The notes under the pieces were generated by a model. The model was given only the letters and a program-made list of their open reading frames with translations, was not told where the DNA came from and did not search any database. This document shows, one piece after another, positions 10,086 through 39,800 of a DNA stretch of 50,301 nucleotides (its first letter is position 1; each line of letters begins with the position of its first letter). Where the stretch lies: positions 1 to 50,301 of the forward strand of contig JAUCBJ010000076.1 in the NCBI GenBank assembly GCA_032718475.1, written 5' to 3'. Made by a program: the position numbers and the translations under genes. The stretch comes from Nemertoderma westbladi. Its lineage: Eukaryota; Animalia; Xenacoelomorpha.

Positions 10086-10335
10086 CTCATTTCTACTGTC
10101 CGAGTTCACTCGACCTAGTAGTAATACATAACTGTATACGTTAAACCTACAATATACATTTAATAGGTATAGTGTAGGCCTGTGTTTTAACATCTATTAA
10201 ATTTCCTTACATTCAGTGGATTCGTATACTAACTGTTTATAAGTTAAATTATATCACGCATCATCTAGCAGAGCACGAGATTATTGGTCAGATTATATAA
10301 GGGACAAATAAAACTCAACAACAAATCAAACAACA

Positions 10336-10458
10336 ATGCCAAAAAAGGATAAAGAGAAAAAGGATAAGAAGTCAAAAGGTGGTGCTGTGCCTGTCTATCA
10401 GCCACCCCCTCCCCCAATAGAAAAGCCAGATGAAAGCTACACAGTGTACGGAGAAGAG
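10336..10458 (+). CDS. First coding exon of an unidentified host gene: MPKKDKEKKDKKSKGGAVPVYQPPPPPIEKPDESYTVYGEE (phase 0)
   Basis: ATG in an A-rich initiation context (CAACAATGCCA), 41 open codons with a Lys-rich then Pro-rich N-terminus, ending at the consensus donor GAG|GTAAGT (10459). Too short for the ORF track. Confidence 0.7.
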
Positions 10459-10641
10459 GTAAGTACACAATTATAGTACAGTGTTCGGATAAGAGGTAAG
10501 TACACAATTATAGTACAGTGTATGGAGAAGAGGTAAGTACACAATTATAGTACAGTGTTTGGAGAAGAGGTAAGTACACAATTATAGTAGTGTACGGAGA
10601 AGAGGAAAGTACACAAGTACAGTAGGAAAGAAGACAAGTAT
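10438..10641 (+). repeat. 37-bp splice-donor satellite, block A (TACAGTGTACGGAGAAGAG|GTAAGTACACAATTATAG)
   Basis: GTAAGT at 10459, 10496, 10533 and 10570 (period 37). The fifth unit has GAAAGT. The first unit overlaps the exon end. Confidence 0.95.
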
Positions 10642-11559: not shown

Positions 11560-11675
11560 TACTGTATCTCTTCGAATAAGAGCCCACCCCCTCGAATAAA
11601 CGCTCCCTGACCATCCTCATCCAAACATCTTAATTAAACGCCTTCCTCGAATAAACGCCACGGCGTTTATCAATA
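11560..11675. mobile_element. Short Tc1/mariner (Tc2/pogo-like) MITE remnant
   Basis: TA+CTGTATCTCTTCGAATAAGAGCCC terminus, repeated TCGAATAAACGC boxes and the hairpin ATAAACGCC-AC-GGCGTTTAT (11651-11670). The right end is degraded. Confidence 0.45.
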
Positions 11676-12239
11676 TGTATTTCACCATGGACTGGAATAT
11701 AAGGTCAAAAAATGCCCCCCCCCCCCCCCCCCCCAACAATAAAAAAAATTCGACAAATCTTCAGTGATAATTAGTGATTAATTTTTTTTTTGTTTTCTTA
11801 CATTTTTATACTGTACATCTGTAATAATTTAAAATCCAATTACAGTAGTTAGCATATTGATGTAATTATAATTAAAGCGCAACATCTTTACTTTCAAGAA
11901 CATATGTAATAATGTTATAATTTTTTAATAAAAGTAGGTAAGGCAGACAGGTTATTATCACCTTCGCTAAGATAAAGGATCGTAAAGTTGCCATTTTAAA
12001 TATTCAATTTTTGCGCTTCTTATTGTTAACGGGAGGGGGGGTGGTGGGTGGGGGGCGGCTTAACAAAAGTTTACACAAACGGAAAGTTTACACTCAATTG
12101 CATCCCTTTTTAGGGGTCAATTTGTTTGGCTAAAACGTTTATCACATAAATGAGACAGTTGCGTTAATTCTATACTCGATACTTCATTTTCTTTTTACAG
12201 TTTAATATTTTTATGGTTTTGATCGAGACAGGGGGGGAT

Positions 12240-12922
12240 AGTTCTTTTTAAAGAACACAAGTGAACACACAAGAACACACCCGAACACTCTACAAAAACT
12301 GCCGAACACAATCGAACACAGTCGAAAATAGACAGAGCACAAAAAATTAATACCGGGTACCAACTTTTAGATAAAATTAGCCACGCGTATTAGCTAATAG
12401 GCCTGTTTGCCTGTGTACTGGAATAGCTTGGTCTGGGAATGATTGCTGAGGATATGAATTAGGAAATTACTGTAGGCCCGTTACCGTACGTACTGAACAC
12501 AACGTACGGTACAACATAGGTACCGGTACTTACCTGCCTTCTACTGCACTGGAATATAAAGAGCTGGGTCCCGGTTATGTGCCTACCCTGACAGGTACCG
12601 GTAGGGATCTCTGTCCCGGTGCTAACCACACTTAACTTAAGGCTACTACGTTGTTAAATTATTATTAGTTGTCGGTTTACTGTAGGCTAGGCCTGATCTG
12701 ACAAGAAATGAATATTTAATTTCGCGACAATTTTATTCAATAATTTCGGGAATTTTCTCATAGAAAAGCAACGCGTGGCTAATTTTATCTAAAAGTTGGT
12801 ACCCGGTGTTATTTTTTTGTGCTCTTTATATTTTCGACTGTGTTCGATTGTGTTCGGCAGTTTTTGGAGTGTGTTCGGGTGTGTTCTACTGTGTTCGCTT
12901 GTGTTCTGTAAAAAGGGAAACT
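12240..12922. mobile_element. Foldback/MITE element with ~150-bp inverted arms
   Basis: 12240-12388 is the near reverse complement of 12771-12922. The arms carry tandem GAACAC boxes and enclose a ~380-bp non-coding spacer. No clear TSD. Confidence 0.85.
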
Positions 12923-13377
12923 GGACGCCGTTAAATTCTCAATTTAGGGAAAGGAGCAGGTTACAGTGGCACGTTATTCCAACCAAAACAATAAACAAAA
13001 GTTAATACAATAGGTTACAGTTTTATTTTTAGAGATAATCATCTGTTATTTGCGTCGAATTTCCCCTGGAAAGGGATGAATTTTGTTTGCGTCGAAAGTC
13101 CCCCTCCCCCTCCCCCTATCTGTTTTGATCGTAATTAACTCTAGTAATGAATCAACCAGTAAATTTTGGATGGAGTGTTTTTAAGAAAGAGGCAGCACTC
13201 TTCCACAGCTTGTTGCATCCTGGTACAACGTACCAATTTACAAAGAAACGAAGCGTGATGGTAATTACATAATAAATGTTAAGTAGATGGGGTATAGAAT
13301 GAAATCCTGACAGTAATATTAAATATCCCGCCCAAATGTTTCAAGTAAAATATATTTTGTAGTCAAAAAATAATTAC

Positions 13378-19300: not shown

Positions 19301-22300
19301 AATACTCGCGGGCTAAGAATACCCACTGTGTGCGGGCAAAGAATACTCGCGGGCTAAGAATACCCACTGTGTGCGGGCAAAGAATACTCGTGGGCTAAGA
19401 ATACCCACTGGGTGCGGGCTAAGAATACTCGTGGGCTAAGAATATCCACTCCGTGCGGGCTAAGAATACTCGTGGTCTAAGAATACCCACTGTGTGCGGG
19501 ATAAGAATACTCACGGGCTAAGAATATCCACTCCGTGCGGGCTAAGAATACTCGCGGGCTAAGAATACCCACTGTGTGCGGGCTAAGAATACTCGTGGGC
19601 TAAGAATACCCACTGTGTGCGGGCTAAGAATACTCGTGGGCTAAGAATACCCACTGTGTGCGGGCTAAGAATACTCGTGGGCTAAGAATACCCACTCAGT
19701 GCGGGCTAAGAATACCCACTGTGTGCGGGCTAAGAATACTCGTGGGCTAAGAATACCCACTGTGTGCGGGCTAAGAATACTCGTGGGCTAAGAATATCCA
19801 CTCCGTGCGGGCTAAGAATACTCGCGGGCTAAGAATACCCACTGTGTGCGGGCTAAGAATACTCGTGGGCTAAGAATACCCACTGTGTGCGGGCAAAGAA
19901 TACTCGTGGGCTAAGAATACCCACTGTGTGCGGGCTAAGAATACTCGTGGGCTAAGAATACCCACTGTGTGCGGGCTAAGAATACTCGTGGGCTAAGAAT
20001 ACCCACTGTGTGCGGGCAAAGAATACTCGTGGGCTAAGAATACCCACTGTGTGCGGGCTAAGAATACTCGTGGGCTAAGAATACCCACTGTGTGCGGGCT
20101 AAGAATACTCGTGGGCTAAGAATACCCACTGTGTGCGGGCTAAGAATACTCGTGGGCTAAGAATACCCACTGTGTGCGGGCTAAGAATACTCGCGGGCTA
20201 AGAATACCCACTGTGTGCGGGCTAAGAATACTCGTGGGCTAAGAATACCCACTGTGTGCGGGCAAAGAATACTCGTGGGCTAAGAATACCCACTGTGTGC
20301 GGGCAAAGAATACTCGTGGGCTAAGAATACCCACTGTGTGCGGGCTAAGAATACTCGTGGTCTAAGAATACCCACTGTGTGCGGGCTAAGAATACTCGCG
20401 GGCTAAGAATACCCACTGTGTGCGGGCAAAGAATACTCGCGGTCTAAGAATACCCACTGTGTGCGGGCTAAGAATACTCGTGGGCTAAGAATACCCACTG
20501 TGTGCGGGCAAAGAATACTCGTGGTCTAAGAATACCCACTGTGTGCGGGCTAAGAATACCCACTGTGTGCGGGCTAAGAATACTCGCGGGCTAAGAATAC
20601 CCACTGTGTGCGGGCAAAGAATACTCGCGGTCTAAGAATACCCACTGTGTGCGGGCTAAGAATACTCGTGGGCTAAGAATACCCACTGTGTGCGGGCAAA
20701 GAATACTCGTGGTCTAAGAATACCCACTGTGTGCGGGATAAGAATACTCACGGGCTAAGAATATCCACTCCGTGCGGGCTAAGAATACTCGCGGGCTAAG
20801 AATACCCACTGTGTGCGGGCTAAGAATACTCGTGGGCTAAGAATACCCACTGTGTGCGGGCAAAGAATACTCGTGGGCTAAGAATACCCACTGGGTGCGG
20901 GCTAAGAATACTCGTGGGCTAAGAATATCCACTCCGTGCGGGCTAAGAATACTCGTGGTCTAAGAATACCCACTGTGTGCGGGATAAGAATACTCACGGG
21001 CTAAGAATATCCACTCCGTGCGGGCTAAGAATACTCGCGGGCTAAGAATACCCACTGTGTGCGGGCTAAGAATACTCGCGGGCTAAGAATACCCACTGTG
21101 TGCGGGCTAAGAATACTCGTGGGCTAAGAATACCCACTGTGTGCGGGCAAAGAATACTCGAGGTCTAAGAATACCCACTGTGTGCGGGATAAGAATACTC
21201 GTGGGCTAAAAATATCCACTCCGTGCGGGCTAAGAATACTCGCGGGCTAAGAATACCCACTGTGTGCGGGCTAAGAATACTCGTGGGCTAAGAATACCCA
21301 CTGTGTGCGGGCAAAGAATACTCGCGGGCTAAGAATACCCACTGTGTGCGGGCAAAGAATACTCGTGGGCTAAGAATACCCACTGTGTGCGGGCTAAGAA
21401 TACTCGTGGGCTAAGAATACCCACTGTGTGCGGGCAAAGAATACTCGCGGGCTAAGAATACCCACTGTGTGCGGGCAAAGAATACTCGTGGGCTAAGAAT
21501 ATCCACTCCGTGCGGGCAAAGAATACTCGTGGTCTAAGAATATCCACTGTGTGCGGGCTAAGAATACTCGTGGTCTAAGAATACCCACTGTGTGCGGGCT
21601 AAGAATACTCGTGGTCTAAGAATATCCACTGTGTGCGGGATAAGAATACCCACTGGGTGCGGGCTAAGAATACTCGTGGTCTAAGAATATCCACTGTGTG
21701 CGGGATAAGAATACCCACTGGGTGCGGGCTAAGAATACTCGCGGGCTAAGAATACCCACTGTGTGCGGGCTAAGAATACTCGTGGGCTAAGAATACCCAC
21801 TGTGTGCGGGCTAAGAATACTCGTGGTCTAAGAATATCCACTGTGTGCGGGATAAGAATACCCACTGGGTGCGGGCTAAGAATACTCGTGGTCTAAGAAT
21901 ATCCACTGTGTGCGGGATAAGAATACCCACTGGGTGCGGGCTAAGAATACTCGCGGGCTAAGAATACCCACTGTGTGCGGGCTAAGAATACTCGCGGGCT
22001 AAGAATACCCACTGTGTGCGGGCAAAGAATACTCGCGGGCTAAGAATACCCACTGTGTGCGGGCAAAGAATACTCGCGGGCTAAGAATACCCACTGTGTG
22101 CGGGATAAGAATACTCGTGGGCTAAGAATACCCACTGTGTGCGGGCTAAGAATACCCACTGGGTGCGGGCTAAGAATACTCGCGGGCTAAGAATACCCAC
22201 TGTGTGCGGGCTAAGAATACTCGTGGGCTAAGAATACCCACTGTGTGCGGGCTAAGAATACTCGTGGGCTAAGAATACCCACTGTGTGCGGGCAAAGAAT

Positions 22301-25300
22301 ACTCGTGGGCTAAGAATACCCACTGTGTGCGGGCTAAGAATACTCGTGGGCTAAGAATACCCACTGTGTGCGGGCTAAGAATACTCGTGGGCTAAGAATA
22401 CCCACTGTGTGCGGGCAAAGAATACTCGTGGGCTAAGAATACCCACTGTGTGCGGGCTAAGAATACTCGTGGTCTAAGAATACCCACTGTGTGCGGGCTA
22501 AGAATACTCGTGGTCTAAGAATATCCACTGTGTGCGGGATAAGAATACCCACTGGGTGCGGGCTAAGAATACTCGCGGGCTAAGAATACCCACTGTGTGC
22601 GGGCTAAGAATACTCGCGGGCTAAGAATACCCACTGTGTGCGGGCAAAGAATACTCGCGGGCTAAGAATACCCACTGTGTGCGGGCAAAGAATACTCGCG
22701 GGCTAAGAATACCCACTGTGTGCGGGATAAGAATACTCGTGGGCTAAGAATACCCACTGTGTGCGGGCTAAGAATACCCACTGGGTGCGGGCTAAGAATA
22801 CTCGCGGGCTAAGAATACCCACTGTGTGCGGGCTAAGAATACTCGTGGGCTAAGAATACCCACTGTGTGCGGGCTAAGAATACTCGTGGGCTAAGAATAC
22901 CCACTGTGTGCGGGCAAAGAATACTCGTGGGCTAAGAATACCCACTGTGTGCGGGCTAAGAATACTCGTGGGCTAAGAATACCCACTGTGTGCGGGCTAA
23001 GAATACTCGTGGGCTAAGAATACCCACTGTGTGCGGGCAAAGAATACTCGCGGGCTAAGAATACCCACTGTGTGCGGGCTAAGAATACTCGTGGGCTAAG
23101 AATACCCACTGTGTGCGGGCAAAGAATACTCGCGGGCTAAGAATACCCACTGTGTGCGGGCTAAGAATACTCGTGGGCTAAGAATACCCACTGTGTGCGG
23201 GCAAAGAATACTCGTGGGCTAAGAATACCCACTGTGTGCGGGCTAAGAATACTCGTGGGCTAAGAATATCCACTCCGTGCGGGATAAGAATACTCACGGG
23301 CTAAGAATATCCACTCCGTGCGGGCAAAGAATACTCGCGGGCTAAGAATACCCACTGTGTGCGGGCTAAGAATACTCGCGGGCTAAGAATACCCACTGTG
23401 TGCGGGATAAGAATACTCGTGGTCTAAGAATACCCACTGTGTGCGGGCTAAGAATACTCGTGGGCTAAGAATACCCACTGTGTGTGGGCTAAGAATATCC
23501 ACTCCGTGCGGGCTAAGAATACTCGTGGGCTAAGAATACCCACTGTGTGCGGGATAAGAATACTCGTGGGCTAAGAATACCCACTCCGTGCGGGCTAAGA
23601 ATACTCGTGGGCTAAGAATACCCACTGTGTGCGGGATAAGAATACTCGTGGGCTAAGAATACCCACTCCGTGCGGGCTAAGAATACTCGTGGGCTAAGAA
23701 TACCCACTGTGTGCGGGCAAAGAATACTCGCGGGCTAAGAATACCCACTGTGTGCGGGCTAAGAATACTCGTGGGCTAAGAATACCCACTGTGTGCGGGC
23801 AAAGAATACTCGTGGGCTAAGAATACCCACTGTGTGCGGGCAAAGAATACTCGTGGTCTAAGAATACCCACTGTGTGCGGGATAAGAATACTCACGGACT
23901 AAGAATACCCACTCCGTGCGGGCTAAGAATACTCGTGGGCTAAGAATACCCACTGTGTGCGGGCTAAGAATACTCGTGGTCTAAGAATACCCACTGTGTG
24001 CGGGATAAGAATACTCACGGGCTAAGAATATCCACTCCGTGCGGGCTAAGAATACTCGTGGGCTAAGAATACCCACTGTGTGCGGGCAAAGAATACTCGT
24101 GGTCTAAGAATACCCACTGTGTGCGGGATAAGAATACTCACGGGCTAAGAATATCCACTCCGTGCGGGCTAAGAATACTCGTGGGCTAAGAATACCCACT
24201 CCGTGCGGGCTAAGAATACTCGTGGGCTAAAAATACCCACTGTGTGCGGGATAAGAATACTCATGGGCTAAGAATATCCACTCCGTGCGGGCTAAGAATA
24301 CTCGCGGGCTAAGAATATCCACTCCGTGCGGGCTAAGAATACTCACGGGCTAAGAATATCCACTCCGTGCGGGCTAAGAATACTCGCGGGCTAAGAATAC
24401 CCACTGTGTGCGGGCTAAGAATACTCGTGGGCTAAGAATACCCACTGTGTGCGGGCTAAGAATACTCGTGGGCTAAGAATACCCACTGTGTGCGGGCAAA
24501 GAATACTCGTGGGCTAAGAATACCCACTGTGTGCGGGCTAAGAATACTCGTGGGCTAAGAATACCCACTGTGTGCGGGCAAAGAATACTCGTGGGCTAAG
24601 AATACCCACTGTGTGCGGGCTAAGAATACTCGTGGGCTAAGAATACCCACTGTGTGCGGGCTAAGAATACTCATGGGCTAAGAATATCCACTGTGTGCGG
24701 GCTAAGAATACTCGTGGGCTAAGAATACCCACTGTGTGCGGGCAAAGAATACTCGTGGGCTAAGAATACCCACTGTGTGCGGGCTAAGAATACTCGTGGG
24801 CTAAGAATACCCACTGTGTGCGGGCAAAGAATACTCGTGGGCTAAGAATACCCACTGTGTGCGGGCTAAGAATACTCGTGGGCTAAGAATACCCACTCCG
24901 TGCGGGCTAAGAATACTCGTGGGCTAAGAATACCCACTGTGTGCGGGATAAGAATACTCACGGGCTAAGAATATCCACTCCGTGCGGGCTAAGAATACTC
25001 GCGGGCTAAGAATACCCACTGTGTGCGGGCTAAGAATACTCGTGGGCTAAGAATACCCACTGTGTGCGGGCTAAGAATACTCGTGGGCTAAGAATACCCA
25101 CTGTGTGCGGGCAAATAATACTCGTGGTCTAAGAATACCCACTGTGTGCGGGCAAAGAATACTCGTGGGCTAAGAATACCCACTGTGTGCGGGCAAAGAA
25201 TACTCGTGGGCTAAGAATACCCACTGTGTGCGGGCTAAGAATACTCGTGGGCTAAGAATACCCACTCCGTGCGGGCTAAGAATACTCGCGGGCTAAGAAT

Positions 25301-26372
25301 ACCCACTGTGTGCGGGCTAAGAATACTCGTGGGCTAAGAATACCCACTGTGTGCGGGCAAAGAATACTCGTGGGCTAAGAATACCCACTGTGTGCGGGCT
25401 AAGAATATCCACTCCGTGCGGGCTAAGAATACCCACTGTGTGCGGGATAAGAATACTCACGGGCTAAGAATATCCACTCCGTGCGGGCTAAGAATACTCG
25501 TGGTCTAAGAATACCCACTGTGTGCGGGATAAGAATACTCACGGGCTAAGAATATCCACTCCGTGCGGGCTAAGAATACTCGCGGGCTAAGAATACCCAC
25601 TGTGTGCGGGCTAAGAATACTCGTGGTCTAAGAATACCCACTGTGTGCGGGATAAGAATACTCACGGGCTAAGAATATCCACTCCGTGCGGGCTAAGAAT
25701 ACTCGCGGGCTAAGAATACCCACTGTGTGCGGGCTAAGAATACTCGTGGTCTAAGAATACCCACTGTGTGCGGGATAAGAATACTCACGGGCTAAGAATA
25801 TCCACTCCGTGCGGGCTAAGAATACTCGCGGGCTAAGAATACCCACTGTGTGCGGGCTAAGAATACTCGTGGTCTAAGAATACCCACTGTGTGCGGGATA
25901 AGAATACTCACGGGCTAAGAATACCCACTGTGTGCGGGCTAAGAATACTCGTGGGCTAAGAATACCCACTGTGTGCGGGATAAGAATACTCACGGGCTAA
26001 GAATATCCACTCCGTGCGGGCTAAGAATACTCGTGGTCTAAGAATACCCACTGTGTGCGGGATAAGAATACTCACGGGCTAAGAATATCCACTCCGTGCG
26101 GGCTAAGAATACTCGCGGGCTAAGAATACCCACTGTGTGCGGGCAAAGAATACTCGTGGTCTAAGAATACCCACTGTGTGCGGGATAAGAATACTCACGG
26201 GCTAAGAATACCCACTGTGTGCGGGCAAAGAATACTCATGGGCTAAGAATACCCACTGTGTGCGGGCTAAGAATACCCACTCCGTGCGGGCTAAGAATAC
26301 TCGCAGATTTCGGGCTAAGAATACTCGCGGGCTAAGGATACTCACGGGTTAAGAATACCCGCGGGCTAAGAA
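13378..26372. repeat. 41-bp satellite, ~13 kb; dimer of 17-bp GGGCTAAGAATACTCGT and 24-bp GGGCTAAGAATACCCACTGTGTGC
   Basis: Continuous tandem array of roughly 315 units with recurrent variants (GGGCAAAG, GGTCTAAG, GGGATAAG, TATCCACTCCG, CTGGG). Confidence 0.99.
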
Positions 26373-26573
26373 TTCACCCAATCCTCATCAGCCACAGTTC
26401 TCTATTCTGCATTCCTAATGTCTTTACCTGGAGTTCCATTGAGGTTAATCGTGTCCAGATATCACCTAGCACAACTACAATTTCATGTCTCTGAAGGAGG
26501 TTTCGTGGGGTCAAATTCCCCCCGCTTTAGCCTCTTCTTGCAAGATGCAGTTATCACACCATTTTCGTATGAC

Positions 26574-27480
26574 GTACAGTGTACCGAGAAGAGGAAAGTA
26601 AACAAGTATATTGTACAATAGGAAAGTACACAAGTATTTTTTTTTTAAGTACACAAGTATAGTACAGTGTACGGAGAAGAGGAAAGTACACAAGTATAGT
26701 ACAGTAGGAAAGTACACAAGTATAGTACAGTAGGAAAGTACACAAGTATAGTACAGTGTACTGTACAGAGAAGAGGAAAGTACACAAGTATAGTACAGTG
26801 TACGGAGAAGAGGAAAGTACACAAGTATAGTACAGTAGGAAAGTACACAAGTATAGTACAGTAGGAAAGTACACAAGTATAGTACAGTAGGAAAGTACAC
26901 AAGTATAGTACAGTAGGAAAGTACACAAGTATAGTACAGTAGGAACGTACACAAGTATAGTACAGTAGGAAAGTACACAAGTATAGTACAGTAGGAAAGT
27001 ACACAAGTATAGTACAGTAGGAAAGTACACAAGTATAGTACAGTAGGAACGTACACAAGTATAGTACAGTAGGAAAGTACACAAGTAGTACAGTGTACAG
27101 AGAAGAGGAAAGTACACAAGTATAGTACAGTACGAGAGTACACAAGTATAGTACAGTAGGAAAGTACACAAGTATAGTACAGTAGGAAAGTACACAAGTA
27201 TAGTACAGTAGGAAAGTACACAAGTATAGTACAGTAGGAAAGTACACAAGTAGTACAGTGTACAGAGAAGAGGAAAGTACACAAGTATAGTACAGTACGA
27301 GAGTACACAAGTATAGTACAGTAGGAAAGTACACAAGTATAGTACAGTAGGAAAGTACACAAGTATAGTACAGTAGGAAAGTACACAAGTATAGTACAAT
27401 GAACAGAGAAGAGGAAAGTACACAAGTATAGTACAGTAGGAAAGTACACAGGTATAGTACAGCAGGGAAGTACACAAATA
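26574..27480 (+). repeat. Splice-donor satellite block B (37-bp units mixed with the 26-bp deletion derivative AGTACAGTAGGAAAGTACACAAGTAT)
   Basis: Same family as 10438-10641. The donor GT is not retained (mostly GAAAGT). Confidence 0.97.
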
Positions 27481-30400
27481 TTTTTTTTTTTAGACTGCTT
27501 AGTGCTTTTTTTTTAATGACAAACTAGACAAATATAAATATAAAAGTTATAAAAAATAAGAAAAACCTCACCCACCACCAGGCTACTATACAATGTTGCT
27601 TGGCTAAGAATTGTGGTTAATTGTAGTGCGCGCAGGAATTTCAAAATTAGTTTATGCTTGTATCAGCATTTGCCAACCGGATAGAGGCTTGAGCGATGTC
27701 CTGATATATGCCTGCAGGGCCTTTACGGGCGGACCTAGAGCCGCGGACGCACATGAGCGAGGCCCTCAACAAGGCGACAACTCAACCAGTTGCCGTCGCA
27801 CCCAGTTCACACATTCACTATATGGCGTCTCGCGCCTTTCCGCCAACTTGGAAGCGAGATGCTTCACAAACAGCGTTGTAGTGGGCGAGTGCAAGATACC
27901 GAAGCGTGTGCGAAAATATGAGGGGTGTAAACATCGCAAGTTCGCCCTCCCTGATCCGTTCCTGATATTTATTCCATTTCCGGTTCTCGTTGAACAGATG
28001 GGTGGCGTCAGGTTCCATAGCTGTGTTCATTGGGGTGAGGGGATTGAAAACTGAGACGTCAATAAACGTCTTCTGGAATTGACTCCCCCAGAAACCGGAA
28101 ACTGAGACATCCAGCCGGGCTTGTTGGTCAACAGAGGTGGACGCGCGGTTAAACTGCTCGCTGGTAATTGGCAGCAGGTGCGGCTCGATGGTGACGTTGT
28201 GGACAACTTCCGTTAGGGTGGAGGCAACGAAATCTCGCAATTCAGGGAGCGAATCGACAGATAACCGCTGGTGGGACAGGACAAGAAATGGTTGGTTGAA
28301 AATCTTGTCCCACAGGCACAATGGGCGGGAAGCGATCAGGTTGCCACCCATAACGTAGACACAAGGCGTCACGAAACTCCTCCTTACTGAAAGGGCGTCG
28401 AGGAGGGTTATTGGACACGCGTTTAGCCAGGCCAAGGCGCCAGTGGGTTCAGCAACCAACACCATCAACTTCTGTTGATGTACAGGTAAGTGGCTGCTGG
28501 CTGTTTCTACTTTAATTTTGATTTGTTCCACGGCGCTGGCCTTTATTCTGGTTGCGATCTGTCGCTGCGACTCCTTTATGGCTCCCAGTGTTTCGAGGTT
28601 GGTGTACGGTTCACATATCCACCTAGAATTATTATGTTCACTTTCTAGCTCTGTAGGTGTTGGGATGGTCAATCCTCCATGGCGTACCGGTAGCGAGAAC
28701 AGTTTGCGCTCCGAGGGCGATATACTGGGGTGGTTTGTAAATCCATGTAGGAACTGGATAACAGATTCTTCGAGTTTATAAAGAACTCCATTGCTCCAGG
28801 GACAACTCATGCAACAAACCTCCATCGTGCGACCAATCTGACAGCCAGTCCCACATATGCGCAGTGTGGGTCGATTGTCGCCACCTCGCTGAGTCGCTGT
28901 ATCTGGGCAACAAACTCATCAACTTTTGACTGGACAGAGTCCTCCCGGAACTCATCTGTCCCGATTACCCCACCGGAACATCCATCGAGCCTCCTCCCAC
29001 CTCTCCGGCTTCACCAACAGATGGCACTTCTTCGGATTATATCCGTATAGTGGCCCCCGCCGCGCCAGGCACTCCCAGAACTTCCTGAGATCCACCAGTA
29101 AACTCGCTGCATTCGCATCTTCGGCGTACCACTTCTGCAGGGCTCTGGATGCGTTGACCAACTCACCGATTAACGGGAGCATCCTCATAGCATACATGGG
29201 CATAGCAATGGAGTCACCCTGGGTCGATCCTTCCACCGATAGGATATACTCTCCACCGATATAAAGCTTTGTTGGCAGAGAGTAACAGTTCGACACGATA
29301 GTGTGGAGGGATGGACAGACACGGCGGATGTTGTGGATGGCAGCTGCTCGGTTGAACGAATTGAACGCATTATTTGCATCCACCTGGAGCACAGCCTCGC
29401 AGTCATCAGTAGCGAACACGTTGTTGAGGCTGTGTATGGCATGCTCAATTCCCGCCTTCTGGCTGCAGCAGAGCTGGGTGGTACCGGCGACAGTCTGGAG
29501 ATTATCAGAGATACACTGGACTATCGATTTTCCGATGACCCTCCATAACACCTCACCGATCCCGATTGGGTGGACCCCTGGACATTTATCGATTGCGATC
29601 AATCAGGCCGATAGCAGAGATGACAGTTCAACTGGGTTGATCTCAGACTGAGCCATCTTCTTAGCCGTATTGGCGATACCGAGTTATGATATGTTTCCAC
29701 CCTTGTACATCAAGTCCCGATGGTCCCACTGTGGTACCCTGAAAACGCAGGAACATCAACTGGATTAGCTGTGCGTCAATTCGCTTGAAGATGACGTTCT
29801 GGAATTCAGGGGCGTGGTCGAAAAAGTCCAGTAGAGTCGAATTATCAGCCGGAGTTGGTGCCAGGTGTTTATCCAGCAGAAACTCACGAACTGATTTCTT
29901 GACCACATGTTTATCTCTCATAATCTCGTCGAGGTTGAAGATATGTAGGAGTCGGGCCATCTCCTGGACGACCTCTCTTCCGACAGCGCCGAGGGGTAGG
30001 AGGAATAAATTGGGACGCCAATGTACTATCGCCTCATGGACCCTGTGGAGTGTGGATGGTCTGTGTAAACTGTTCCAGTTGAAAGTTAACCCCATACCAG
30101 GTTATTGATGTTGGTCTGTGTCCTGTGGAGACACCAGTTGGTGGTGCCCCGGAATGTGGTGACCCTGTTTCTGGTGACCCCGCGTGTGGTGCCCCCATCT
30201 GTGGTGCCTCTGGCTGTGGTGCCCCCAAATGTGGAGCCCCGGACTGTGGTGATGGTGACCCCACCTGTGTTGCCCTGGGCTGTGGTGACCCTGCCTGTGT
30301 TGCCCCAGGCTTTGGTGCCCCCATCTGTGGTGACCCCGTGTGTGGTGCCCCCACCTGTGGTGCCTCTGGGTGTGGTCACCCCATCTGTGGTGCCCCCAAC

Positions 30401-31250
30401 TGTGGTACCCCGGACAGTGGTGCCCCAGACTGTGGTGACCCCTGCTGTGGTGCTCCCATATGTGGTGCCCCTGTGTGTGGTGCACCCGTCTGTAGAGTAC
30501 CCGACTGTTGTGCCCCCGTATGTGGTGCCCCAGACTGTGGTGCCCTGGACTGTGGTGACCCAGACTGTGTTGCCCACGACTGTGGTGCCCCCCTGTGTGG
30601 TACACCCGACTGTAGGGCACCGAAAGTGGCAGTATGAAAGATAACGCCCTCAGCCAACGACTCCGCAGCAGAGATTGTCTCGGGACTCAAGTGCAAACTC
30701 TTGAAAGGATAGCATTGGCCCTCTCTCGCGCCGCACCCAGAGACCAAACTGAAGAGTTCCACATTCCTGACGGACTGGCGGTAAGCGGAGACACACTGGC
30801 GATCGGAGGTCCACCCAATAAAATTTCGTCCAGTAAAGTTTCGTCAGCTAGACTTTCTGATGCGACGCATGGGTTAACCGGCTGAGAGGCTGACCTTGGG
30901 GAAAAAGTGGATTCATTGTGGCGATCCGGTAAAGGTTGAGAGTAAGGGTGCCGGCAGTTCTCACAATTACCATTTCTTCCTGGGGCACACGTTATGCAGT
31001 GTACATCATTCCTGATGCATACACATTTTTTGCAGCGCCTGGACTTTCCGTTGCAGCCGCAGCAAGCAGCCATCCTAAAGCCTTCAAAAGCGACGTGTAA
31101 ACTCGCAGAGGGAAGCGAGACAACCCGGAATCAACAATAAGGCGCCACGCAGTCTGGCAGTTATCAATAGGGTGAATGTATTGTCAGTCAGGCCTTTGCT
31201 AGCGAAGTCACAAAGGCATACATGTTGTAATTGTACTCCTGTTACATTAC
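27481..31250 (-). mobile_element. CRE-clade non-LTR retrotransposon (RT + restriction-like endonuclease), near full length, degenerate
   Basis: ORF starts at 31073 with a Cys-rich motif, then IVHWRPNLFLLP and GPSGLD. RT motifs IAIDKCPGVHPIGIGEVLWR, DANNAFN, EGSTQGD, WYAED, GPLYGY; then SLPVRHGGL; RLE region ARLDVSVSGFW...FIDVSVFNP...ENRKWNKY...FTPLIFS. The poly(A) tail appears as T11 at 27481-27491. Several frameshifts and stops. Confidence 0.92.
30138..30630 (-). repeat. 15-bp coding tandem repeat inside the CRE ORF (GAPQS/GSPQS pentapeptides)
   Basis: Plus-strand unit TGTGGTGCCCCNNNC, about 30 degenerate copies, between the Cys-rich N-terminus and the pre-RT region. Confidence 0.9.
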
Positions 31251-31603
31251 AGTGCACAAGTATAGTACAGTAGGAAAGTACATAAGTATAGTACAGTGTA
31301 CAGAGAAGAGGAAAGTACACAAGTATAGTACAGTGTACAGAGAAGAGGAAAGTACACAAGTATAGTACAGTGTATGGAGAAGAGGAAAGTACACAAGTAT
31401 AGTACAGTAGGAAAGTACACAAGTATAGTACAGTGTACAGAGAAGAGGAAAGTACACAAGAATAGTACAGTGTATGGAGAAGAGGAAAGTACACAAGTAT
31501 AGTACAGTGTATGCAGAATAGGAAAGTTCACAAGTATAGTACAGTCGGGAAGTACACAAGTATATTACAGTGTACAGAGAAGAGGAAAGTACACAAGTAT
31601 AGT
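31251..31603 (+). repeat. Splice-donor satellite block C (between the two CRE copies)
   Basis: 37/26-bp units AGTACAGTGTACAGAGAAGAGGAAAGTACACAAGTAT. Confidence 0.97.
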
Positions 31604-33252
31604 TTGTCGAACTCCAGAAGATCTGGGACATTGACTCCGTTAGGGGGCCTCTCACGGTTACTATCCGACAAAATGCTCCCTTGTTGTAAAACCGGAAAAC
31701 TCCAGGAAGCGAAGGTAATGTTCGCGGACACCAATTTTTCAGTCGACTCGGTTGGAAACAAACTCCTGGGAGGTGTTATCGGCACCGAGGTGTTCCGTAA
31801 CAACTTCATCGAACAAAAAGCCGAGGAGTTCGTCGTAGATGTGGATCGACTCGCTACCATCGCCGCTGTTGATCCACATTGCGCATATGCCAGACTGGCA
31901 TTCGGTCTGTCCTGTCGGTGGCGGTTTCTGGTGCGTGTTGTCCCTGGAGCCACTGACAGATTTGGTGGTCTGGAGGAGTCCATAGGGAGGTGTCTGTGCC
32001 GGATATTTGACTGCCCAGCAATAACACCAGTAGAACCGCAACTGATGTCGCTTCCGGTTCGCGATGGTGGGCTAGGGATTCCTGTACCAGCTGATCTACA
32101 GCCCCAGTACGAATATTCCTGGAGGATTTGCGAACCGTTTGCCTCCTTAGAAGGTGAGTATATGGCAGTGGTGAGAGAGGGGCAGACACACATACCCAAG
32201 TTAGTAGCCACCTATTCATCAGTTGTAGCGAAAGCTAAAAAGTTTTGACCAACATAATTTGGTTATATTAACTACCGAAAAAGGTGCATCTGCATGGTTA
32301 AACACCAAACCACTCACACTGCACGACACTCACCTGTCCAAAGGAGAGTTTAGGGATGCTGTTTGTCTCCGCTATGGTTGGTCGCTGAAGAACCTACCAT
32401 CTCGTTGTGTTTGCGGGTCCCGATTTTCTGCAACCCACGTTCTGTCGTGTCCCACTGGAGGTTTCACCTCCATCAGATACTACAAGATCCGCGATTTTGT
32501 CACCGACACCCTAACCAAGGTGGCACACAATGTGGCAGTCGAACCGATGCTCCAACCACTAACGGGGGAGTCCTTCTCCCTCCGCACCACCTCGACGGAC
32601 CAGCAGGTGAGCGGATTCTGGGGCAATCGCTACCAGAATATTTTCATCGACGTGTCGGTGTTCAACCCGCTGGCGGACACCAACGCGGCGATGTCGATTG
32701 AAGCCGCTCATCTCCACCACGAGGCGAGGAAGTGCTGGAAATATGAGGAGATATTACGCGAGGTGGAACACTCCACCTTCACTCCCTTAATCTTCTCTGC
32801 TTTCGGCGGAAAGGCACCAGCTGCCCATCAGTTTGTCAAACGACTGGCGGTGAAGTTATACGACAAACGGCAGGTTCCCTATCCAATGTGTGCCTCACGG
32901 GTACGTCGGCGAATCAGTTTCTCCCTCCTCAGGTCGTCCTTAATGTGTTTATGCGGGTACCTTTCAGCTGCTAGGCGACTGGTGTGGGAGGCAGTCATCA
33001 ACTCATCGATCTGGTTGGCTAATGCGGACTCAGACCCTGGGGTGGTGGCGCAGTTCGGTAGGGTGGGGTAACAGTAGTATGCTCCATACACCATAGAGAC
33101 TGTTTCTGTGTTGGGGGCGGGCAAAGGAATTCATTTTAAATTTCCCTTGTACATTGGTTGCTTAGTAACGTCAGCTGGTGATGGGTATTGTTTAACATTA
33201 ACGTTTTATTATCTATGTGAATAAATGAGACTTATGAGGTTTATTGAAAAAA
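31604..33252 (+). mobile_element. Second CRE-clade retrotransposon, 5'-truncated (RT thumb to RLE, 3' UTR), diverged from the first copy
   Basis: LLGGVIG, DPHCAYA, SLPVRDGGLGIP, EKGASAWL, EFRDAVCLRYGW, zinc knuckle CVCG...HVLSCPTGG, VEPMLQPL, GFWG...FIDVSVFNP, EARKCWKYEE, FTPLIFS. Short A-tail at 33247-33252. Confidence 0.92.
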
Positions 33253-33312
33253 GAATAGTACAGTGTATGGAGAAGAGGAAAGAGTATAGTATAGTATAAG
33301 AGGTAAGTACAT
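33251..33312 (+). repeat. Splice-donor satellite block D (terminal; last unit retains AAGAG|GTAAGTAC)
   Basis: ATAGTACAGTGTATGGAGAAGAGGAAAG... then TAAGAG GTAAGTACA (GT at 33303), running into unique AT-rich sequence. Confidence 0.8.
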
Positions 33313-33922: not shown

Positions 33923-34787
33923 TAAACAATATATGGTTGCACGGATTAGTCCAACTTAGCACAAATACCAAATACATTCCATAAACACAATATATGGTTG
34001 CACGGATTAGTCCAACTTAGCACAAATACCAAATACATTCAATAAACACAATATATGGTTGCACGGATTAGTCCAACTTAGCACGAATACCAAATACATT
34101 CAATAAACACAATATATGGTTGCACGGATTAGTCCAACTTAGCACGAATACCAAATACATTCAATAAACACAATATATGGTTGCACGGATTAGTCCAACT
34201 TAGCACGAATACCAAATACATTCAATAAACACAATATACGGTTGCACGGATTAGTCCAACTTAGCACGAATACCAAATACATTCAATAAACACAATATAT
34301 GGTTGCACGAATTAGTCCAACTTAGCACGAATACTAAATACATTCAATAAACACAATATATGGTTGCACGGATTAGTCCAACTTAGCACAAATACCAAAT
34401 ACATTCAATAAACACAATATATGGTTGCACGGATTAGTCCAACTTAGCACAAATACCAAATACATTCAATAAACACAATATATGGTTGCACGGATTAGTC
34501 CAACTTAGCACAAATACCAAATACATTCAATAAACACAATATATGGTTGCATGGATTAGTCCAACTTAGCACAAATACCAAATACATTCAATAAACACAA
34601 TATATGGTTGCACGGATTAGTCCAACTTAGCACAAATACCAAATACATTCAATAAACACAATATATGGTTGCACGGATTAGTCCAACTTAGCACAAATAC
34701 CAAATACATTCAATAAACACAATATATGGTTGCATGGATTAGTCCAACTTAGCACAAATACTAAATACTTTCAATAAACACAATATA
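33923..34787. repeat. 61-bp minisatellite, ~14 copies (TAAACACAATATATGGTTGCACGGATTAGTCCAACTTAGCACAAATACCAAATACATTCAA)
   Basis: ATATGGTTGC recurs at 33931, 33992, 34053 and onward (period 61); units are nearly identical. Confidence 0.97.
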
Positions 34788-36812
34788 TTTCTGTATTTGT
34801 CTGTAAGCAATACACAATACAATAAAACTTTTACTTTTACGATATTAATATATTACTTGTTATTCATATTATATTATAATATACATCATATTATAATATG
34901 CATATAACCGCTACAATATACTTCAATTTAACTTTTACAATAAACTTTCACTTTTACATAAGGAATATAAATAAGATATATAAAACCAACTGCGTATGAT
35001 GGTAACTAACTACCCGACCCGCATTATAAACAATGTTCAATTGTCTAATGTCTTGAATTTAGTTCCTAGAACCGACCTACCGAATCCCTTCGGATAATGA
35101 AATTAACTAAATATTTTTCGGAAATAATCCCGACTTAAACATGAGATACACCAACGCCATCTAGCGGTTTTAACAATTATTGTTAAAACCTATTGTAAAA
35201 TACATTTTCTTCCACGGTGTAGCAGTATGAATGGCTGGTGATAGCAAATAGAAATATCTACTGTAGATACACTTCGTGGTGTGTACTGTTGTTATATTTC
35301 ACAAGATTACAGGCCGAGTTCTGTGTAACATTTTATTATGCATTATTAAACCATATGGGGTATGTATTATATTTATAAAGGAAGGCATCAACCCTCAACT
35401 ACTTTATCTACATCGGAAGTAGAGAAATATCATAGAATATCTTATGAACCTTTTGAATTTGAAAGCCAATACAATAAAACCTGGAAAAAACATTTAAAAG
35501 CTGGAAATAATTAACAAATAGTTTTTCATTAATTTAGAACATTTAGCGGGAAATTTGAATTTTGACATAAATATAACAAAAGTTTAAAAAAACTGGGGAC
35601 GGAAAGGCTCTATTTCGGAATAACATTGAAATCTTACATCGTTATAAAATATAATTTCCGTGACATCTGATCCACCCTCATTAATAAAATAATATTTCAC
35701 AAGCTTTTATAAAATTTGTTCTAGAACATAACATATGTTTAATTCTAATTAATAGCTAACATGTTCTAGAACATGTTCCTGAGAAGAAATAGCAAAAATT
35801 AGATAGTATACAATTTTGAAAGGGTTATACCTATAACACACCTACGTACCGACCGTTCCTACCTATCGTTGTCTATAACACACCTGTACCCAATCTTCCT
35901 TAAAATGTCTCTAACTTATTTGTCTTCCTTTTAATTTTTCTGATTTGTAATTATTTGATTGGATGTTTGTTGATATAGAAACCACTCCAGACAATTACAT
36001 TTGTTTCCCTGAGTTTTGTAAAGTCGTTCGAACTAGTTTGCAAAAGTCGGGGAAACAAAAAAAGATTACAAAACTGGCTGCTCAGAGTTACCATAAGTAA
36101 TAGTAAGCCTAGGTTGATTCTGTTCTAGTCTCTACAGTACTCTCCACTGTAAACACAATGAATTAAAATAAACCAAACTTGGTACGTGTGTAGTCCGTCA
36201 AAAGTTTAATAAGAGTCTGAAGATTGGTCAAAAATGAGACAGACTTTCAGTCGGTACTGGTAGTTTCAGACTTTGAATGAAAACCTAAATTAGTCGGTCA
36301 ATTATTGATGAAATCAAACCAAACTTTGTACGTAATGCAGTCTCATGCTGCGCGAAAGCCCCACGAACGTGTAACAACGCCGAAAGTCCCATGTATTGTC
36401 CTCATCCCTTAAATCTCATCTCATATGCATTATCATAGAGTAAAACATTAGTAAGTTCTTTGTCTAAACGAAATGACTCGTCAATTATTGAAGATTGATA
36501 GTAGGAGGCAACAGGTACTACCCGGCATCAGGTAATACGATAGTACTAAGTGCCTAGGCACCAGGTACTGTTGCCTAGACAACGGGAACTACCCTCAGGC
36601 ACCAGGTACTACCCTAAATGTATGACTTAAACTAAACTTTTGCACTGCATGTAAGGCATCGTCTTGGCGGGAAATTTAAATACAAGCTTTGATATGTTTA
36701 CTTATTCATTCATCAGTCATTACCGGTGAAAAACTTATACGTTCCGTTATTCTATTGTAGTTTTAACTAAAACAAAACAACTGTCAGTATATAATGGTTA
36801 TTGACGACAAAT

Positions 36813-39800
36813 TGGAGCGAAGTGTGACTGGTGGAGCGACGGGTGAGTGGAGTGGTGGAGCGACGGGTGAGTGGAGTGGTGGAGCGAAGGGTGAGTAGAT
36901 TGGTGGACCGATGGGTGAGTGGAGTGGTGGAGCGAAGGGTGAGTGGAGTGGTGGAGGGAAGGGTGAGTGGAGTGGTGGAGCGACGGGTGAGTGGAATGGT
37001 GGAGGGAAGGGTGAGTGGAGTGGTGGAGGGAAGGGTGAGTGGAGTGGTGGAGCGAAGGGTGAGTGGAGTGATGGAGGGAAGGGTGAGTGGAGTGGTGGAG
37101 CGAAGGGTGAGTAGATTGGTGGACCGATGGGTGAGTGGAGTGGTGGACCGATGGGTGAGTGGAGTGGTGGAGCGAAGGGTGAGTGGAGTGGTGGAGGGAA
37201 GGGTGAGTGGAGTGGTGGAGCGAAGGGTGAGTGGAGTGGTGGAGCGAAGGGTGAGTGGAGTGGTGGAGCGAAGGGTGAGTGGAGTGGTGGAGCGAAGGGT
37301 GAGTGGAGTGGTGGAGCGACGGGTGAGTGGAATGGTGGAGGGAAGGGTGAGTGGAGTGGTGGAGGGAAGGGTGAGTGGAGTGGTGGAGCGAAGGGTGAGT
37401 GGAGTGGTGGAGCGAAGGGTGAGTGGAGTGGTGGAGCGAAGGGTGAGTGGAGTGGTGGAGCGACGGGTGAGTGGAATGGTGGAGGGAAGGGTGAGTGGAG
37501 TGGTGGACCAAAGGTTGAGTGGAGTGGTGGAGCGAAGGGTGAGTGGAGTGGTGGAGGGAAGGGTGAGTGGAGTGGTGGAGCGAAGGGTGAGTGGAGTGAT
37601 GGAGCGAAGGGTGAGTGGAGTGGTGGAGCGAAGGGTGAGTGGAGTGGTGGAGCGAAGGGTGAGTGGAGTGGTGGAGCGACGGGTGAGTGGAATGGTGGAG
37701 GGAAGGGTGAGTGGAGTGGTGGACCAAAGGTTGAGTGGAGTGGTGGAGCGAAGGGTGAGTGGAGTGGTGGAGGGAAGGGTGAGTGGAGTGGTGGAGGGAA
37801 GGGAAGTGGGGTGGTGGAGCGAAGGGTGAGTGGAGTGGTGGAGCGAAGGGTGAGTGGAGTGGTGGAGCGAAGGGTGAGTGGAGTGGTGGAGCGAAGGGTG
37901 AGTGGAGTGGTGGAGCGAAGGGTGAGTGGAGTGGTGGAGCGAAGGGTGAGTGGAGTGGTGGAGCGAAGGGTGAGTGGAGTGGTGGAGCGACGGGTGAGTG
38001 GAATGGTGGAGGGAAGGGTGAGTGGAGTGGTGGAGCGACGGGTGAGTGGAATGGTGGAGGGAAGGGTGAGTGGAGTGGTGGACCAAAGGTTGAGTGGAGT
38101 GGTGGAGCGAAGGGTGAGTGGAGTGGTGGAGGGAAGGGTGAGTGGAGTGGTGGATCGAAGGGTGAGTGGAGTGATGGAGCGAAGGGTGAGTGGAGTGGTG
38201 GAGCGAAGGGTGAGTGGAGTGGTGGAGGGAAGGGTGAGTGGAGTGGTGGAGCGAAGGGTTAGTGGAGTGGTGGAGGGAAGGGTGAGTGGAGTGGTGGAGC
38301 GAAGGGTGAGTAGATTGGTGGACCGATGGGTGAGTGGAGTGGTGGAGCGAAGGGTGAGTGGAGTGATGGAGCGAAGGGTGAGTGGAGTGGTGGAGCGAAG
38401 GGTGAGTGGAGTGGTGGAGCGAAGGGTGAGTGGAGTGGTGGAGCGACGGGTGAGTGGAGTGGTGGAGGGAAGGGTGAGTGGAGTGGTGGAGGGAAGGGTG
38501 AGTGGAGTGGTGGAGCGAAGGGTGAGTAGATTGGTGGACCGATGGGTGAGTGGAGTGGTGGAGCGAAGGGTGAGTGGAGTGATGGAGGGAAGGGTGAGTG
38601 GAGTGGTGGAGCGAAGGGTGAGTAGATTGGTGGACCGATGGGTGAGTGGAGTGGTGGAGCGAAGGGTGAGTGGAGTGGTGGACCAAAGGTTGAGTGGAGT
38701 GGTGGAGCGAAGGGTGAGTGGAGTGGTGGAGGGAAGGGTGAGTGGAGTGGTGGAGCGAAGGGTGAGTAGATTGGTGGACCGATGGGTGAGTGGAGTGGTG
38801 GAGCGAAGGGTGAGTGGAGTGATGGAGCGAAGGGTGAGTGGAGTGGTGGAGCGAAGGGTGAGTGGAGTGGTGGAGCGAAGGGTGAGTGGAGTGGTGGAGC
38901 GACGGGTGAGTGGAATGGTGGAGGGAAGGGTGAGTGGAGTGGTGGACCAAAGGTTGAGTGGAGTGGTGGAGCGAAGGGTGAGTGGAGTGGTGGAGGGAAG
39001 GGTGAGTGGAGTGGTGGAGGGAAGGGTGAGTGGAGTGGTGGAGCGAAGGGTTAGTGGAGTGGTGGAGGGAAGGGTGAGTGGAGTGGTGGAGCGATGGGTG
39101 AGTGGAGTGGTGGAGCGAAGGGTGAGTAGATTGGTGGACCGATGGGTGAGTGGAGTGGTGGACCGATGGGTTAGTGGAGTGATGGATCCAACGGTTAGCG
39201 GAGTGATGGAGCCAAGGGTTAGTGGAGTGATGGAGCGAAGGGTGAGTGGAGTGGTGGAGCGAAGGGTGAGTGGAGTGGTGGAGGGAAGGGTAAGTGGAGT
39301 GGTGGAGCGAAGGGTGAGTGTAGTGGTGGACCAAAGGGTGAGTGGAGTGGTGGACCAAAGGGTGAGTGGAGTGGTGGAGGGAAGGGTGAGTGGAATGGTG
39401 GAGCGAAGGGTGAGTGGAGTGGTGGAGCGACGGGTGAGTGGAGTGGTGGAGCGAAGGGTGAGTGGAGTGGTGGAGCGAAGGGTGAGTGTAGTGGTGGACC
39501 AAAGGGTGAGTGGAGTGGTGGACCAAAGGGTGAGTGGAGTGGTGGAGGGAAGGGTGAGTGGAATGGTGGAGCGAAGGGTGAGTGGAGTGGTGGAGCGACG
39601 GGTGAGTGGAATGGTGGAGCGAAGGGTGAGTGGAGTGGTGGAGGGAAGGGTGAGTGGAGTGGTGGAGCGACGGGTGAGTGGAATGGTGGAGCGAAGGGTG
39701 AGTGGAGTGGTGGAGGGAAGGGTGAGTGGAGTGGTGGAGCGAAGGGTGTGTGGAATGGTGGAGCGAAGGGTGAGTGGAGTGGTGGAGCGAAGGGTGAGTG

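What the first reader, a model, noticed from the sequence alone, without database searches (positions are those of the whole stretch)
26574..33312. CRE retrotransposons repeatedly insert at one position of a splice-donor-derived satellite: candidate new target-specific retroelement system
Seen: copy 1 (minus) has its poly(A) junction right after AAGTACACAAATA (27480) and resumes at AGTGCACAAGTA (31251-31262), a ~12-bp duplication in unit register. A poly(T)-only insertion at 26637-26646 has the same junction. Copy 2 (plus, a diverged relative) starts after ACACAAGTATAGT (31603) and ends at AAGAATAGTACAG (33251). All three sit within ~10 bp of the same point in the unit, and no CRE sequence is seen elsewhere in the window, including 26 kb of other satellites. 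Known: RLE-bearing elements (CRE1/SLACS/CZAR in trypanosomatid spliced-leader arrays, NeSL, R2) are often sequence-specific for multicopy targets. Inference: this family recognises the GTACACAAGTATAGTAC region (GTAC lies ~9-12 nt 5' of the inferred priming end on either strand), and the host satellite acts as a landing pad.
Basis: partly seen in the sequence, partly recalled or inferred. Interest (0 to 1): 0.85.

Follow-up and report, generated by a model that had tools for sequence, protein, structure and literature searches.

The report
Retrotransposon pile-up in a splice-site minisatellite
Three jumping-gene insertions sit within a few bases of the same spot in a short tandem repeat, but other copies of the best-sampled family are flanked by unrelated DNA, so this is likely a local hot spot of a loosely selective element and not a dedicated landing pad.

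Summary
The three insertions are real. A poly(T)-only tract, a near-full-length decayed element (minus) and a 5'-truncated sister element (plus, 51% amino-acid identity) carry 13-, 12- and 9-bp target duplications. They lie in a 26/37-bp minisatellite that makes up 3.3% of the window without them. All fit a first nick 7 nt after GTAC, but random sites in this array do so 3-7% of the time. The landing-pad claim fails for family 1. In four public runs none of 33 contigs on its 3' end continued into the satellite, and at least five unrelated flanks appeared, none with GTAC-N7. The window's own junction was also missed, so satellite copies cannot be counted. Family 2 was not tested. Relatives from other genomes sit in unique DNA, in (TAG)n or (TTA)n runs, and once in another GTAC minisatellite with the same spacing. 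Best reading: CRE-like LINEs with relaxed targeting and a soft liking for GTA-rich simple repeats. Side result: this lineage has a nine-cysteine CXC-like N-terminal domain.

The parts
26574..27480 (+). Minisatellite, left block: mixed 26-bp and 37-bp units, homogeneous in the middle and decayed at the edges
26637..26646 (-). Poly(A)-only insertion (T10 on +) with a perfect 13-bp target duplication (26624-26636 / 26647-26659); likely an aborted reverse transcription, donor family unknown
27469..27480 (+). Copy 1 target duplication, 3'-junction side (12 bp)
27481..31250 (-). Copy 1: near-full-length decayed CRE-like LINE with many stops and frameshifts, RT motif reading YAED, and about 105 residues missing before the RT
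27481..27514 (-). Double tail of copy 1: A9, 14 nt, A11; shared by other copies of the family; likely a flank captured by 3' read-through
27650..28400 (-). Copy 1 CCHC knuckle and restriction-like endonuclease region (approximate limits, spread over three frames)
28955..29602 (-). Copy 1 reverse transcriptase core (RVT_1, E 0.001, below the curated cut-off; 7,702 relatives at E<=0.001)
30126..30630 (-). Internal 15-bp tandem repeat (about 31 copies) in the linker between the Cys-rich domain and the RT
30945..31073 (-). N-terminal nine-cysteine, CxN-ending domain (CXC/pre-SET-like), the likely DNA-binding module
31251..31603 (+). Minisatellite, middle block; starts with the second copy-1 duplication (31251-31262) and ends with the first copy-2 duplication (31595-31603)
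31604..33250 (+). Copy 2: 5'-truncated decayed sister element (end of RT, thumb, CCHC knuckle, endonuclease with a 6-residue gap at the first catalytic motif, 3' UTR, AATAAA, short A tail)
33251..33312 (+). Minisatellite, right block; starts with the second copy-2 duplication (33251-33259) and ends in an intact AG/GTAAGT donor-like site
10336..10458 (+). Candidate first exon (ATG, 41 codons, phase-0 GT donor) whose 3' end is the first half of the repeat unit; no homolog found
10441..10624 (+). Five-copy 37-bp array spanning that exon end and donor; same unit family as the array with the insertions; no insertion

Best explanation
Two sister families of CRE-like LINE retrotransposons, and likely a third aborted event, inserted independently into one GTA-rich minisatellite, likely because their endonuclease has only a soft preference for short GTA/GTAC-rich simple repeats, while most copies of the sampled family land elsewhere. 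Shown: three inserts with A-tails and 9-13-bp duplications, two related but distinct proteins with RT, CCHC knuckle and restriction-like endonuclease, and non-satellite flanks for other family-1 ends. Inferred from R2/CRE biochemistry: the protein nicks one strand, the 3' end (beside a T) primes on the RNA's poly(A), and a second nick 9-13 nt away makes the duplication. Inferred: the nine-cysteine N-terminal domain binds DNA and gives the soft preference; this array offers GTA/TAC about five times and GTAC about 14 times more densely than the non-satellite part of the window. Inferred: insertions persist because the array lies in an unconstrained, probably intronic repeat region, and the array kept turning over after they arrived.
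For:: family-1 3' ends continue into three flanks read directly, two decoded from mixed rows and one on a diverged end; none is the satellite, none of the four readable ones has GTAC-N7, and one is a (GTA)n-rich repeat. The 14 nt between the two A-tracts are also unlike the satellite. GTAC 72.5 per kb and GTA+TAC 201 per kb in the array, against 5.1 and 43 per kb in bases 1-13300, and no GTAC in the four other satellites, which hold no insert; relatives end in unique DNA, or have (TAG)n or (TTA)n at both ends (L003, L014, L039, L104), or lie in a 27-bp GTAC minisatellite (L010). L084 has a 13-bp duplication in unique DNA, so this duplication length is ordinary for the lineage; the nearest relatives of both copies are (TTA)n-associated (L035, L039; support 0.997). 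Microsatellite-targeting and non-specific members are known in this group (PMC4640811 and PMC3636483, passages).
Against: No positive motif was recovered from the family-1 flanks: only one of the non-window flanks ends in GTA, so the soft preference rests on the local cluster, one (GTA)n flank and relatives. The flank test missed the window's own junction although exact interior pieces of copy 1 are in run X1 (records 4 and 8), so satellite-flanked copies may be hidden. Window copy 1 differs by 6-12% from the deeper contigs, so the flanks may belong to younger subfamilies with another preference. Family 2 has no flank data. (TAG)n tracts seen only at 3' ends could be tails rather than targets.
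Confidence: 0.55

Rival explanations
1. No sequence preference at all: the elements insert broadly, and the cluster reflects tolerance of insertions in a repeat-filled region plus the fact that such a window was picked out of very many.
For: Family-1 flanks share no motif. The in-unit coincidence has a chance of 3-16% depending on the test. Relatives with clear poly(A) ends mostly abut unique DNA.
Against: Three events fall in 3.3% of the window and none in about 27 kb of other satellites. Two share the same first nick and nearly the same second nick. L010 repeats the pattern in another genome.
Confidence: 0.25
2. One reading: the older subfamilies that made these copies recognised GTAC and nicked 7 nt downstream on either strand, so that GTAC-dense minisatellites were true targets; younger subfamilies have since drifted.
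For: N7 is the only spacing that fits all three junctions (7-8, 7-8, 5-7). In all three, and in L010, the duplication begins within 2 nt of the GTAC. L010 is a full-length relative with an 11-12-bp duplication in a 27-bp GTAC minisatellite and the same spacing. Satellite-flanked contigs may be invisible.
Against: 0 of the non-window family-1 flanks fit. 14-19% of sites in the window array and 12% in the L010 array fit GTAC-N7 by chance. L010 was picked after the fact from 55 loci, has 9 extra bases between tail and duplication, and is not sister to the window copies. The array appears to derive from one gene's exon border, a poor target for a family to specialise on (inference).
Confidence: 0.15
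3. The cluster has fewer independent events than it seems: the poly(T) tract is the remnant of a duplicated copy-1-type junction that lost the element body, or the work of another LINE.
For: The tract has the same first and nearly the same second break as copy 1. Minisatellites recombine unequally (PMC3087553, passages). A decayed LINE of another type lies at about 8350-9790.
Against: Its duplication is perfect while that of copy 1 carries two changes. The bases after the T run are target, not the element's end. Copies 1 and 2 remain two independent events.
Confidence: 0.05

Closest known systems
CRE clade of trypanosomatids (CRE1, CRE2, SLACS, CZAR); PMC12278014 and PMC3636483, passages
   Same: One ORF with RT then restriction-like endonuclease, poly(A) tail, internal repeat region, target-site duplication.
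   Different: Those insert at one position in spliced-leader RNA genes and carry 1-2 zinc-finger-like motifs. These lie in a minisatellite and in unrelated DNA and carry a nine-cysteine domain. No tree with CRE references was built.
Telomere-repeat CRE relatives MoTeR, FoTeR, Cnl1; PMC12857005, passages
   Same: Insertion into short tandem repeats, internal VNTRs, similar CCHC-RH(D/N)-E-RxD-D endonuclease motif order.
   Different: Those are confined to telomeric repeats; family 1 here is not confined to one repeat.
Microsatellite-targeting and non-specific RLE LINEs (Dong, some HERO, Togen; EhRLE3, YURE); PMC4640811 and PMC3636483, passages
   Same: The best behavioural match: simple-repeat preference or relaxed targeting with the same enzyme type.
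   Different: Other clades; a GTAC-rich 26/37-bp unit is not listed as a target in the passages read.
R2 proteins (PDB 9nl3, 9dou, 9nl2, 8gh6)
   Same: Nearest solved structures by profile search (E 4e-11 to 0.005), RT and endonuclease regions.
   Different: Strict 28S rDNA targeting through zinc fingers and Myb; distant in sequence.
'Mirage' minisatellites of amphioxus; PMC3087553, passages
   Same: Tandem copies of an exon-intron border, decayed edge units, homogenised core.
   Different: Here the donor is mutated in the large array, the gene is unconfirmed, and the array holds retrotransposon insertions.
CXC / pre-SET zinc-cluster domains (MSL2, tesmin/TSO1, SET2 pre-SET); PMC3447885, passages
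   Same: Nine invariant Cys in about 40 residues and the terminal C-x-N signature.
   Different: Cys spacing departs from the printed consensus; it sits on a retrotransposon protein; DNA binding untested.

Membership tests
CRE clade (RLE non-LTR retrotransposons) | Single ORF with RT followed by CCHC knuckle and restriction-like endonuclease | tested here: met
   Order seen across the broken frames of copy 1 and in copy 2; 39 of 82 sequences had an open frame of 850 aa or more.
CRE clade (RLE non-LTR retrotransposons) | Poly(A) tail and target-site duplication | tested here: met
   12-bp and 9-bp duplications with A tails; the copy 2 tail is only 4-6 A.
CRE clade (RLE non-LTR retrotransposons) | Endonuclease motif spacing printed for SLACS/CRE1/2 (PMC12857005) | tested here: inconclusive
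   The intact relative L039 has all motifs in order, with three spacers 1-2 residues off and RVD for R/KPD (counted by eye); both window copies are decayed there.
CRE clade (RLE non-LTR retrotransposons) | RT groups with CRE1/SLACS/CZAR/MoTeR in a tree | not tested
The label CRE-like rests on architecture and on motifs recalled from memory.
Trypanosomatid CRE elements | Insertion in spliced-leader RNA genes | tested here: not met
   The window targets are a minisatellite. One deep 20-nt family-1 flank is unidentified.
Sequence-specific retrotransposon family (R2/CRE1/NeSL type) | Nearly all copies at one position of one repeated target: family 1 | tested here: not met
   At least five unrelated flanks; the share of satellite-flanked copies could not be measured.
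Sequence-specific retrotransposon family (R2/CRE1/NeSL type) | Nearly all copies at one position of one repeated target: family 2 | not tested
CXC domain superfamily | Nine invariant Cys and terminal C-x-N | tested here: met
   9 Cys and the Asn are invariant in 27 of 27 aligned sequences, which were chosen by a Cys pattern.
CXC domain superfamily | Printed Cys spacing and Zn3Cys9 fold | tested here: inconclusive
   Spacing differs from the consensus. Model pLDDT 69; Foldseek nothing; 2 of 48,161 chains at Z>=2, SETD2 (Z 2.4, rmsd 2.7, 38 aligned) and NSD3 (Z 2.0, rmsd 2.9, 40 aligned), in ranges I recall as the pre-SET/AWS part; Pfam MSL2-CXC E 0.47 in 1 of 27.
Mirage minisatellite | Unit spans a real exon-intron border of the host gene | tested here: inconclusive
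   The first unit is continuous with an ATG-led 41-codon frame ending at AG/GTAAGT; no homolog and no transcript test.

The most novel reading that the evidence does not exclude
An animal lineage of CRE-like LINEs uses a CXC-type zinc-cluster domain as a small, retunable DNA reader, and some of its families act as offset cutters that read the palindrome GTAC and nick 7 nt away on either strand, so that GTAC-dense minisatellites born from splice junctions become safe harbours; sister families retuned to (TAG)n or (TTA)n.
Probability: 0.15. Interest if true: 0.65.

Novelty: new member of a known kind. Interest (0 to 1): 0.33.

Why it matters
As it stands, this is a clear example of repeated LINE insertion in one minisatellite by a loosely selective family, a behaviour known in this enzyme group. 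The more useful lead is lineage-wide: intact relatives with one small nine-cysteine domain sit in (TAG)n, (TTA)n, a GTAC minisatellite or unique DNA. If that domain sets the preference, these elements offer a natural series for asking how target choice is gained and lost in restriction-like-endonuclease retrotransposons, the class now used for gene insertion.

Tried and rejected
No whole genome is held for the window, so copies could not be collected directly. The satellite unit has no exact match in metagenome contigs or in the first 79 fetched loci. Viral contigs gave no relatives. No RNA holder was listed. Segmental duplication of one insertion was rejected. GTAC-N7 as a lineage-wide rule was rejected: 0 of 19 poly(A) flanks at N5-N8 by automatic junction (L021 and L065 are one locus, and the rule misplaces L010), and 0 of 7 distinct clear poly(A) flanks read by eye among the 37 further loci. 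Automatic duplication search passed its score in only 4 loci; only L084 and L104 are convincing. The first tree had a noisy copy-1 row and was replaced; IQ-TREE bootstrap did not run, so supports are FastTree values. The candidate exon found no homolog (41 residues, weak test). The Cys-rich domain gave no Pfam, PDB-sequence, Foldseek or named Atlas hit. The CxC mentioned for R2 in PMC12247875 (passages) is a zinc-finger spacing variant, not this domain. PMC5029228 and PMC5678591 (passages) added nothing on animal CRE targets. Paper searches showed no description of a CXC-bearing or minisatellite-targeting animal CRE family. Fell et al. 2025, a survey that includes CRE elements according to PMC13580325 (passages), could not be read, and Repbase entries are not searchable here; either may already list these targets.
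Full report
Observation. The window is AT-rich and largely satellite. Between 26574 and 33312 a minisatellite of mixed 26- and 37-bp units is broken three times. A T10 tract at 26637-26646 lies between two perfect 13-bp copies of the target; it is the only one of 10 long A/T runs in the window with such a flanking repeat. Copy 1 (minus, 27481-31250) has a 12-bp duplication with one change on each side. Copy 2 (plus, 31604-33250) has a 9-bp duplication with one change, an AATAAA and a short A tail. No other piece of this family is in the window.

The elements. Both encode decayed proteins of the RT + CCHC + restriction-like endonuclease type; the nearest solved structures are R2 proteins, and the RT has 7,702 relatives at E<=0.001. 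The copies are 50.7% identical over 379 residues and are each other's closest relative. In a FastTree tree of 61 of 82 sequences (those with 300 or more residues in the region copy 2 covers; midpoint root, no named references) they are sisters (0.999), next to L035 and L039 (0.997). They are therefore two independent insertions. Copy 1 keeps about 175 nt ahead of an ATG, then a nine-cysteine domain, then a 15-bp internal repeat. I call them CRE-like from architecture (PMC12278014, PMC12857005, passages) and from motifs recalled from memory; clade membership by tree was not tested.

Is the position more than chance? The satellite family is 3.3% of the window once the inserts are removed, and about 27 kb of other satellites have no insert, so the local cluster is real. 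On the strand that primes reverse transcription, the distance from GTAC to the primer end is 7-8, 7-8 and 5-7 nt, so 7 fits all three. But GTAC is dense here (72.5 per kb against 5.1 in bases 1-13300). 14-19% of sites fit GTAC-N7, three random sites share a GTAC offset in 3-7% of draws, and some 4-mer plus offset in 3.5-16%. This is suggestive, not strong.

Test on other copies in the same species. Six coded runs were listed and four were laid; all are contigs, from at most three samples. Run X1 holds 320- and 324-nt pieces identical to copy 1 at depth 24-29, beside deeper pieces 6-12% different, and summed depth rises steeply at the 3' end, as expected for many truncated copies; the tool warns that depth is no copy number. 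On a 90-nt stretch over the 3' junction, 33 contigs were laid (11, 14, 6, 2; 24 listed) and depth on the satellite side was zero in all four runs. Of 15 loose-end rows, 11 lie on the target side. They give three flanks directly (a GTA-rich repeat, a 20-nt flank on contigs of depth 242 and 449, and an AT-rich one), one more on a diverged end, and two decoded from mixed rows, assuming that ties go to the alphabetically first base, which reproduced one mixed row exactly. None is the satellite, and none of the four readable flanks has GTAC in its last 20 bases. The 14 nt between the two A tracts of copy 1, shared by other copies and likely a captured older flank, do not resemble it either. Against this result: the window's own junction was not recovered, so satellite-flanked contigs may be missing, and the flanks may belong to younger subfamilies. 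The test shows that family 1 is not confined to the satellite; it cannot say how often it lands there. Family 2 was not tested.

Test on relatives. Of the 79, 55 include the 3' end of the ORF: 19 have poly(A) with a flank, 5 poly(A) at a contig end, 11 a trinucleotide run and 20 neither. GTAC at N5-N8 occurred in 0 of 19, and in 0 of 7 distinct clear poly(A) flanks among the 37 (by eye). L003, L014, L039 and L104 have (TAG)n or (TTA)n on both sides, which points to microsatellite targeting in parts of the lineage. L084 has a 13-bp duplication in unique DNA. L010 is the one parallel: a full-length element in a 27-bp GTAC minisatellite with an 11-12-bp duplication and GTAC 7 nt from the primer end. 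It was picked after the fact, 12% of sites in its array would fit, 9 extra bases separate tail and duplication, and it is not sister to the window copies.

The satellite. A five-copy array of the same unit at 10441-10624 starts inside an ATG-led 41-codon frame and spans AG/GTAAGT. In the large array the donor reads GAAAGT, except at its right end. This matches the 'mirage' repeats of amphioxus (PMC3087553, passages), a lead taken from four earlier scan notes on this genome. The exon is unconfirmed. If the unit comes from one gene's exon border it is a local product, which makes a family specialised on it unlikely (inference).

The N-terminal domain. 28 of 82 sequences match a nine-cysteine pattern (many of the rest lack the 5' end). 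In 27 aligned, nine Cys and a final Asn are invariant. The terminal C-x-N is the signature of the CXC superfamily, whose MSL2 and LIN54 members bind DNA, but the spacing departs from the printed consensus (PMC3447885, passages). A model (pLDDT 69) matched only SETD2 and NSD3 segments at Z 2.4 and 2.0 among 48,161 chains, which is weak. I found no description of such a domain in this group in the paper searches; Fell et al. 2025 and Repbase could not be read.

Mechanism and verdict. Most likely (0.55) these are loosely selective CRE-like LINEs that nick, prime on poly(A), make a second nick 9-13 nt away and favour GTA-rich simple repeats, so that this array became a hot spot. Chance plus tolerance follows (0.25), then true GTAC-N7 targeting by older subfamilies (0.15), then a non-independent origin of the poly(T) tract (0.05). 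Microsatellite-specific and non-specific members are already known among restriction-like-endonuclease LINEs (PMC4640811, PMC3636483, passages). The finding is a new member of a known kind; interest 0.33. The offset-cutter reading stays open at 0.15 and is testable with an intact relative.

Noticed in passing
window 30945-31073 (-); L001, L004, L010, L014 and others: Nine-cysteine CXC-like domain at the N-terminus of this LINE lineage (28 of 82 sequences); some relatives have a PHD-like finger instead (P0001, weak Pfam hit).
   Followed up: partly
L001, L003, L014, L022, L023, L056; L035, L039, L066, L071, L104: Relatives that end in (TAG)n/(CTA)n or (TTA)n, four with the run on both sides; L003 holds two diverged elements head to tail separated by (AGT)n. 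Candidate microsatellite-targeting families.
   Followed up: partly
L010:511-594 and 3971-4241: Intact relative inside a 27-bp GTAC-rich minisatellite with an 11-12-bp duplication and the same GTAC spacing.
   Followed up: partly
window 27482-27483 (runs X1-X3): One 20-nt flank of the family-1 3' end lies on very deep contigs; it may be a multicopy target or a second captured tail.
   Followed up: no
window 27699 (runs X2, X3): Several contigs leave the element at the same base about 220 nt from its 3' end, hinting at a short non-autonomous derivative.
   Followed up: no
window 8350-9790 (+): Decayed LINE of another type (DLDFADD motif; RTE-like by recall) in several frames.
   Followed up: no
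window 49561-49905 (-): Fragment with Pfam DUF5641 (E 8e-21), a domain I recall from BEL/Pao LTR elements.
   Followed up: no
window 13378-26373, 36821-49520, 33926-34788, 2732-3753: Four other satellites (41/123-bp, 24-bp, 61-bp, 36-bp units); none holds GTAC or an insert of this family.
   Followed up: partly
window about 12250-12400 and 12770-12910: A pair of long inverted repeats seen by eye, like the ends of a small DNA transposon.
   Followed up: no
L080-L116: Prokaryotic genome bins hold contigs of up to 2.5 Mb with these LINEs, likely host DNA binned with symbionts.
   Followed up: no
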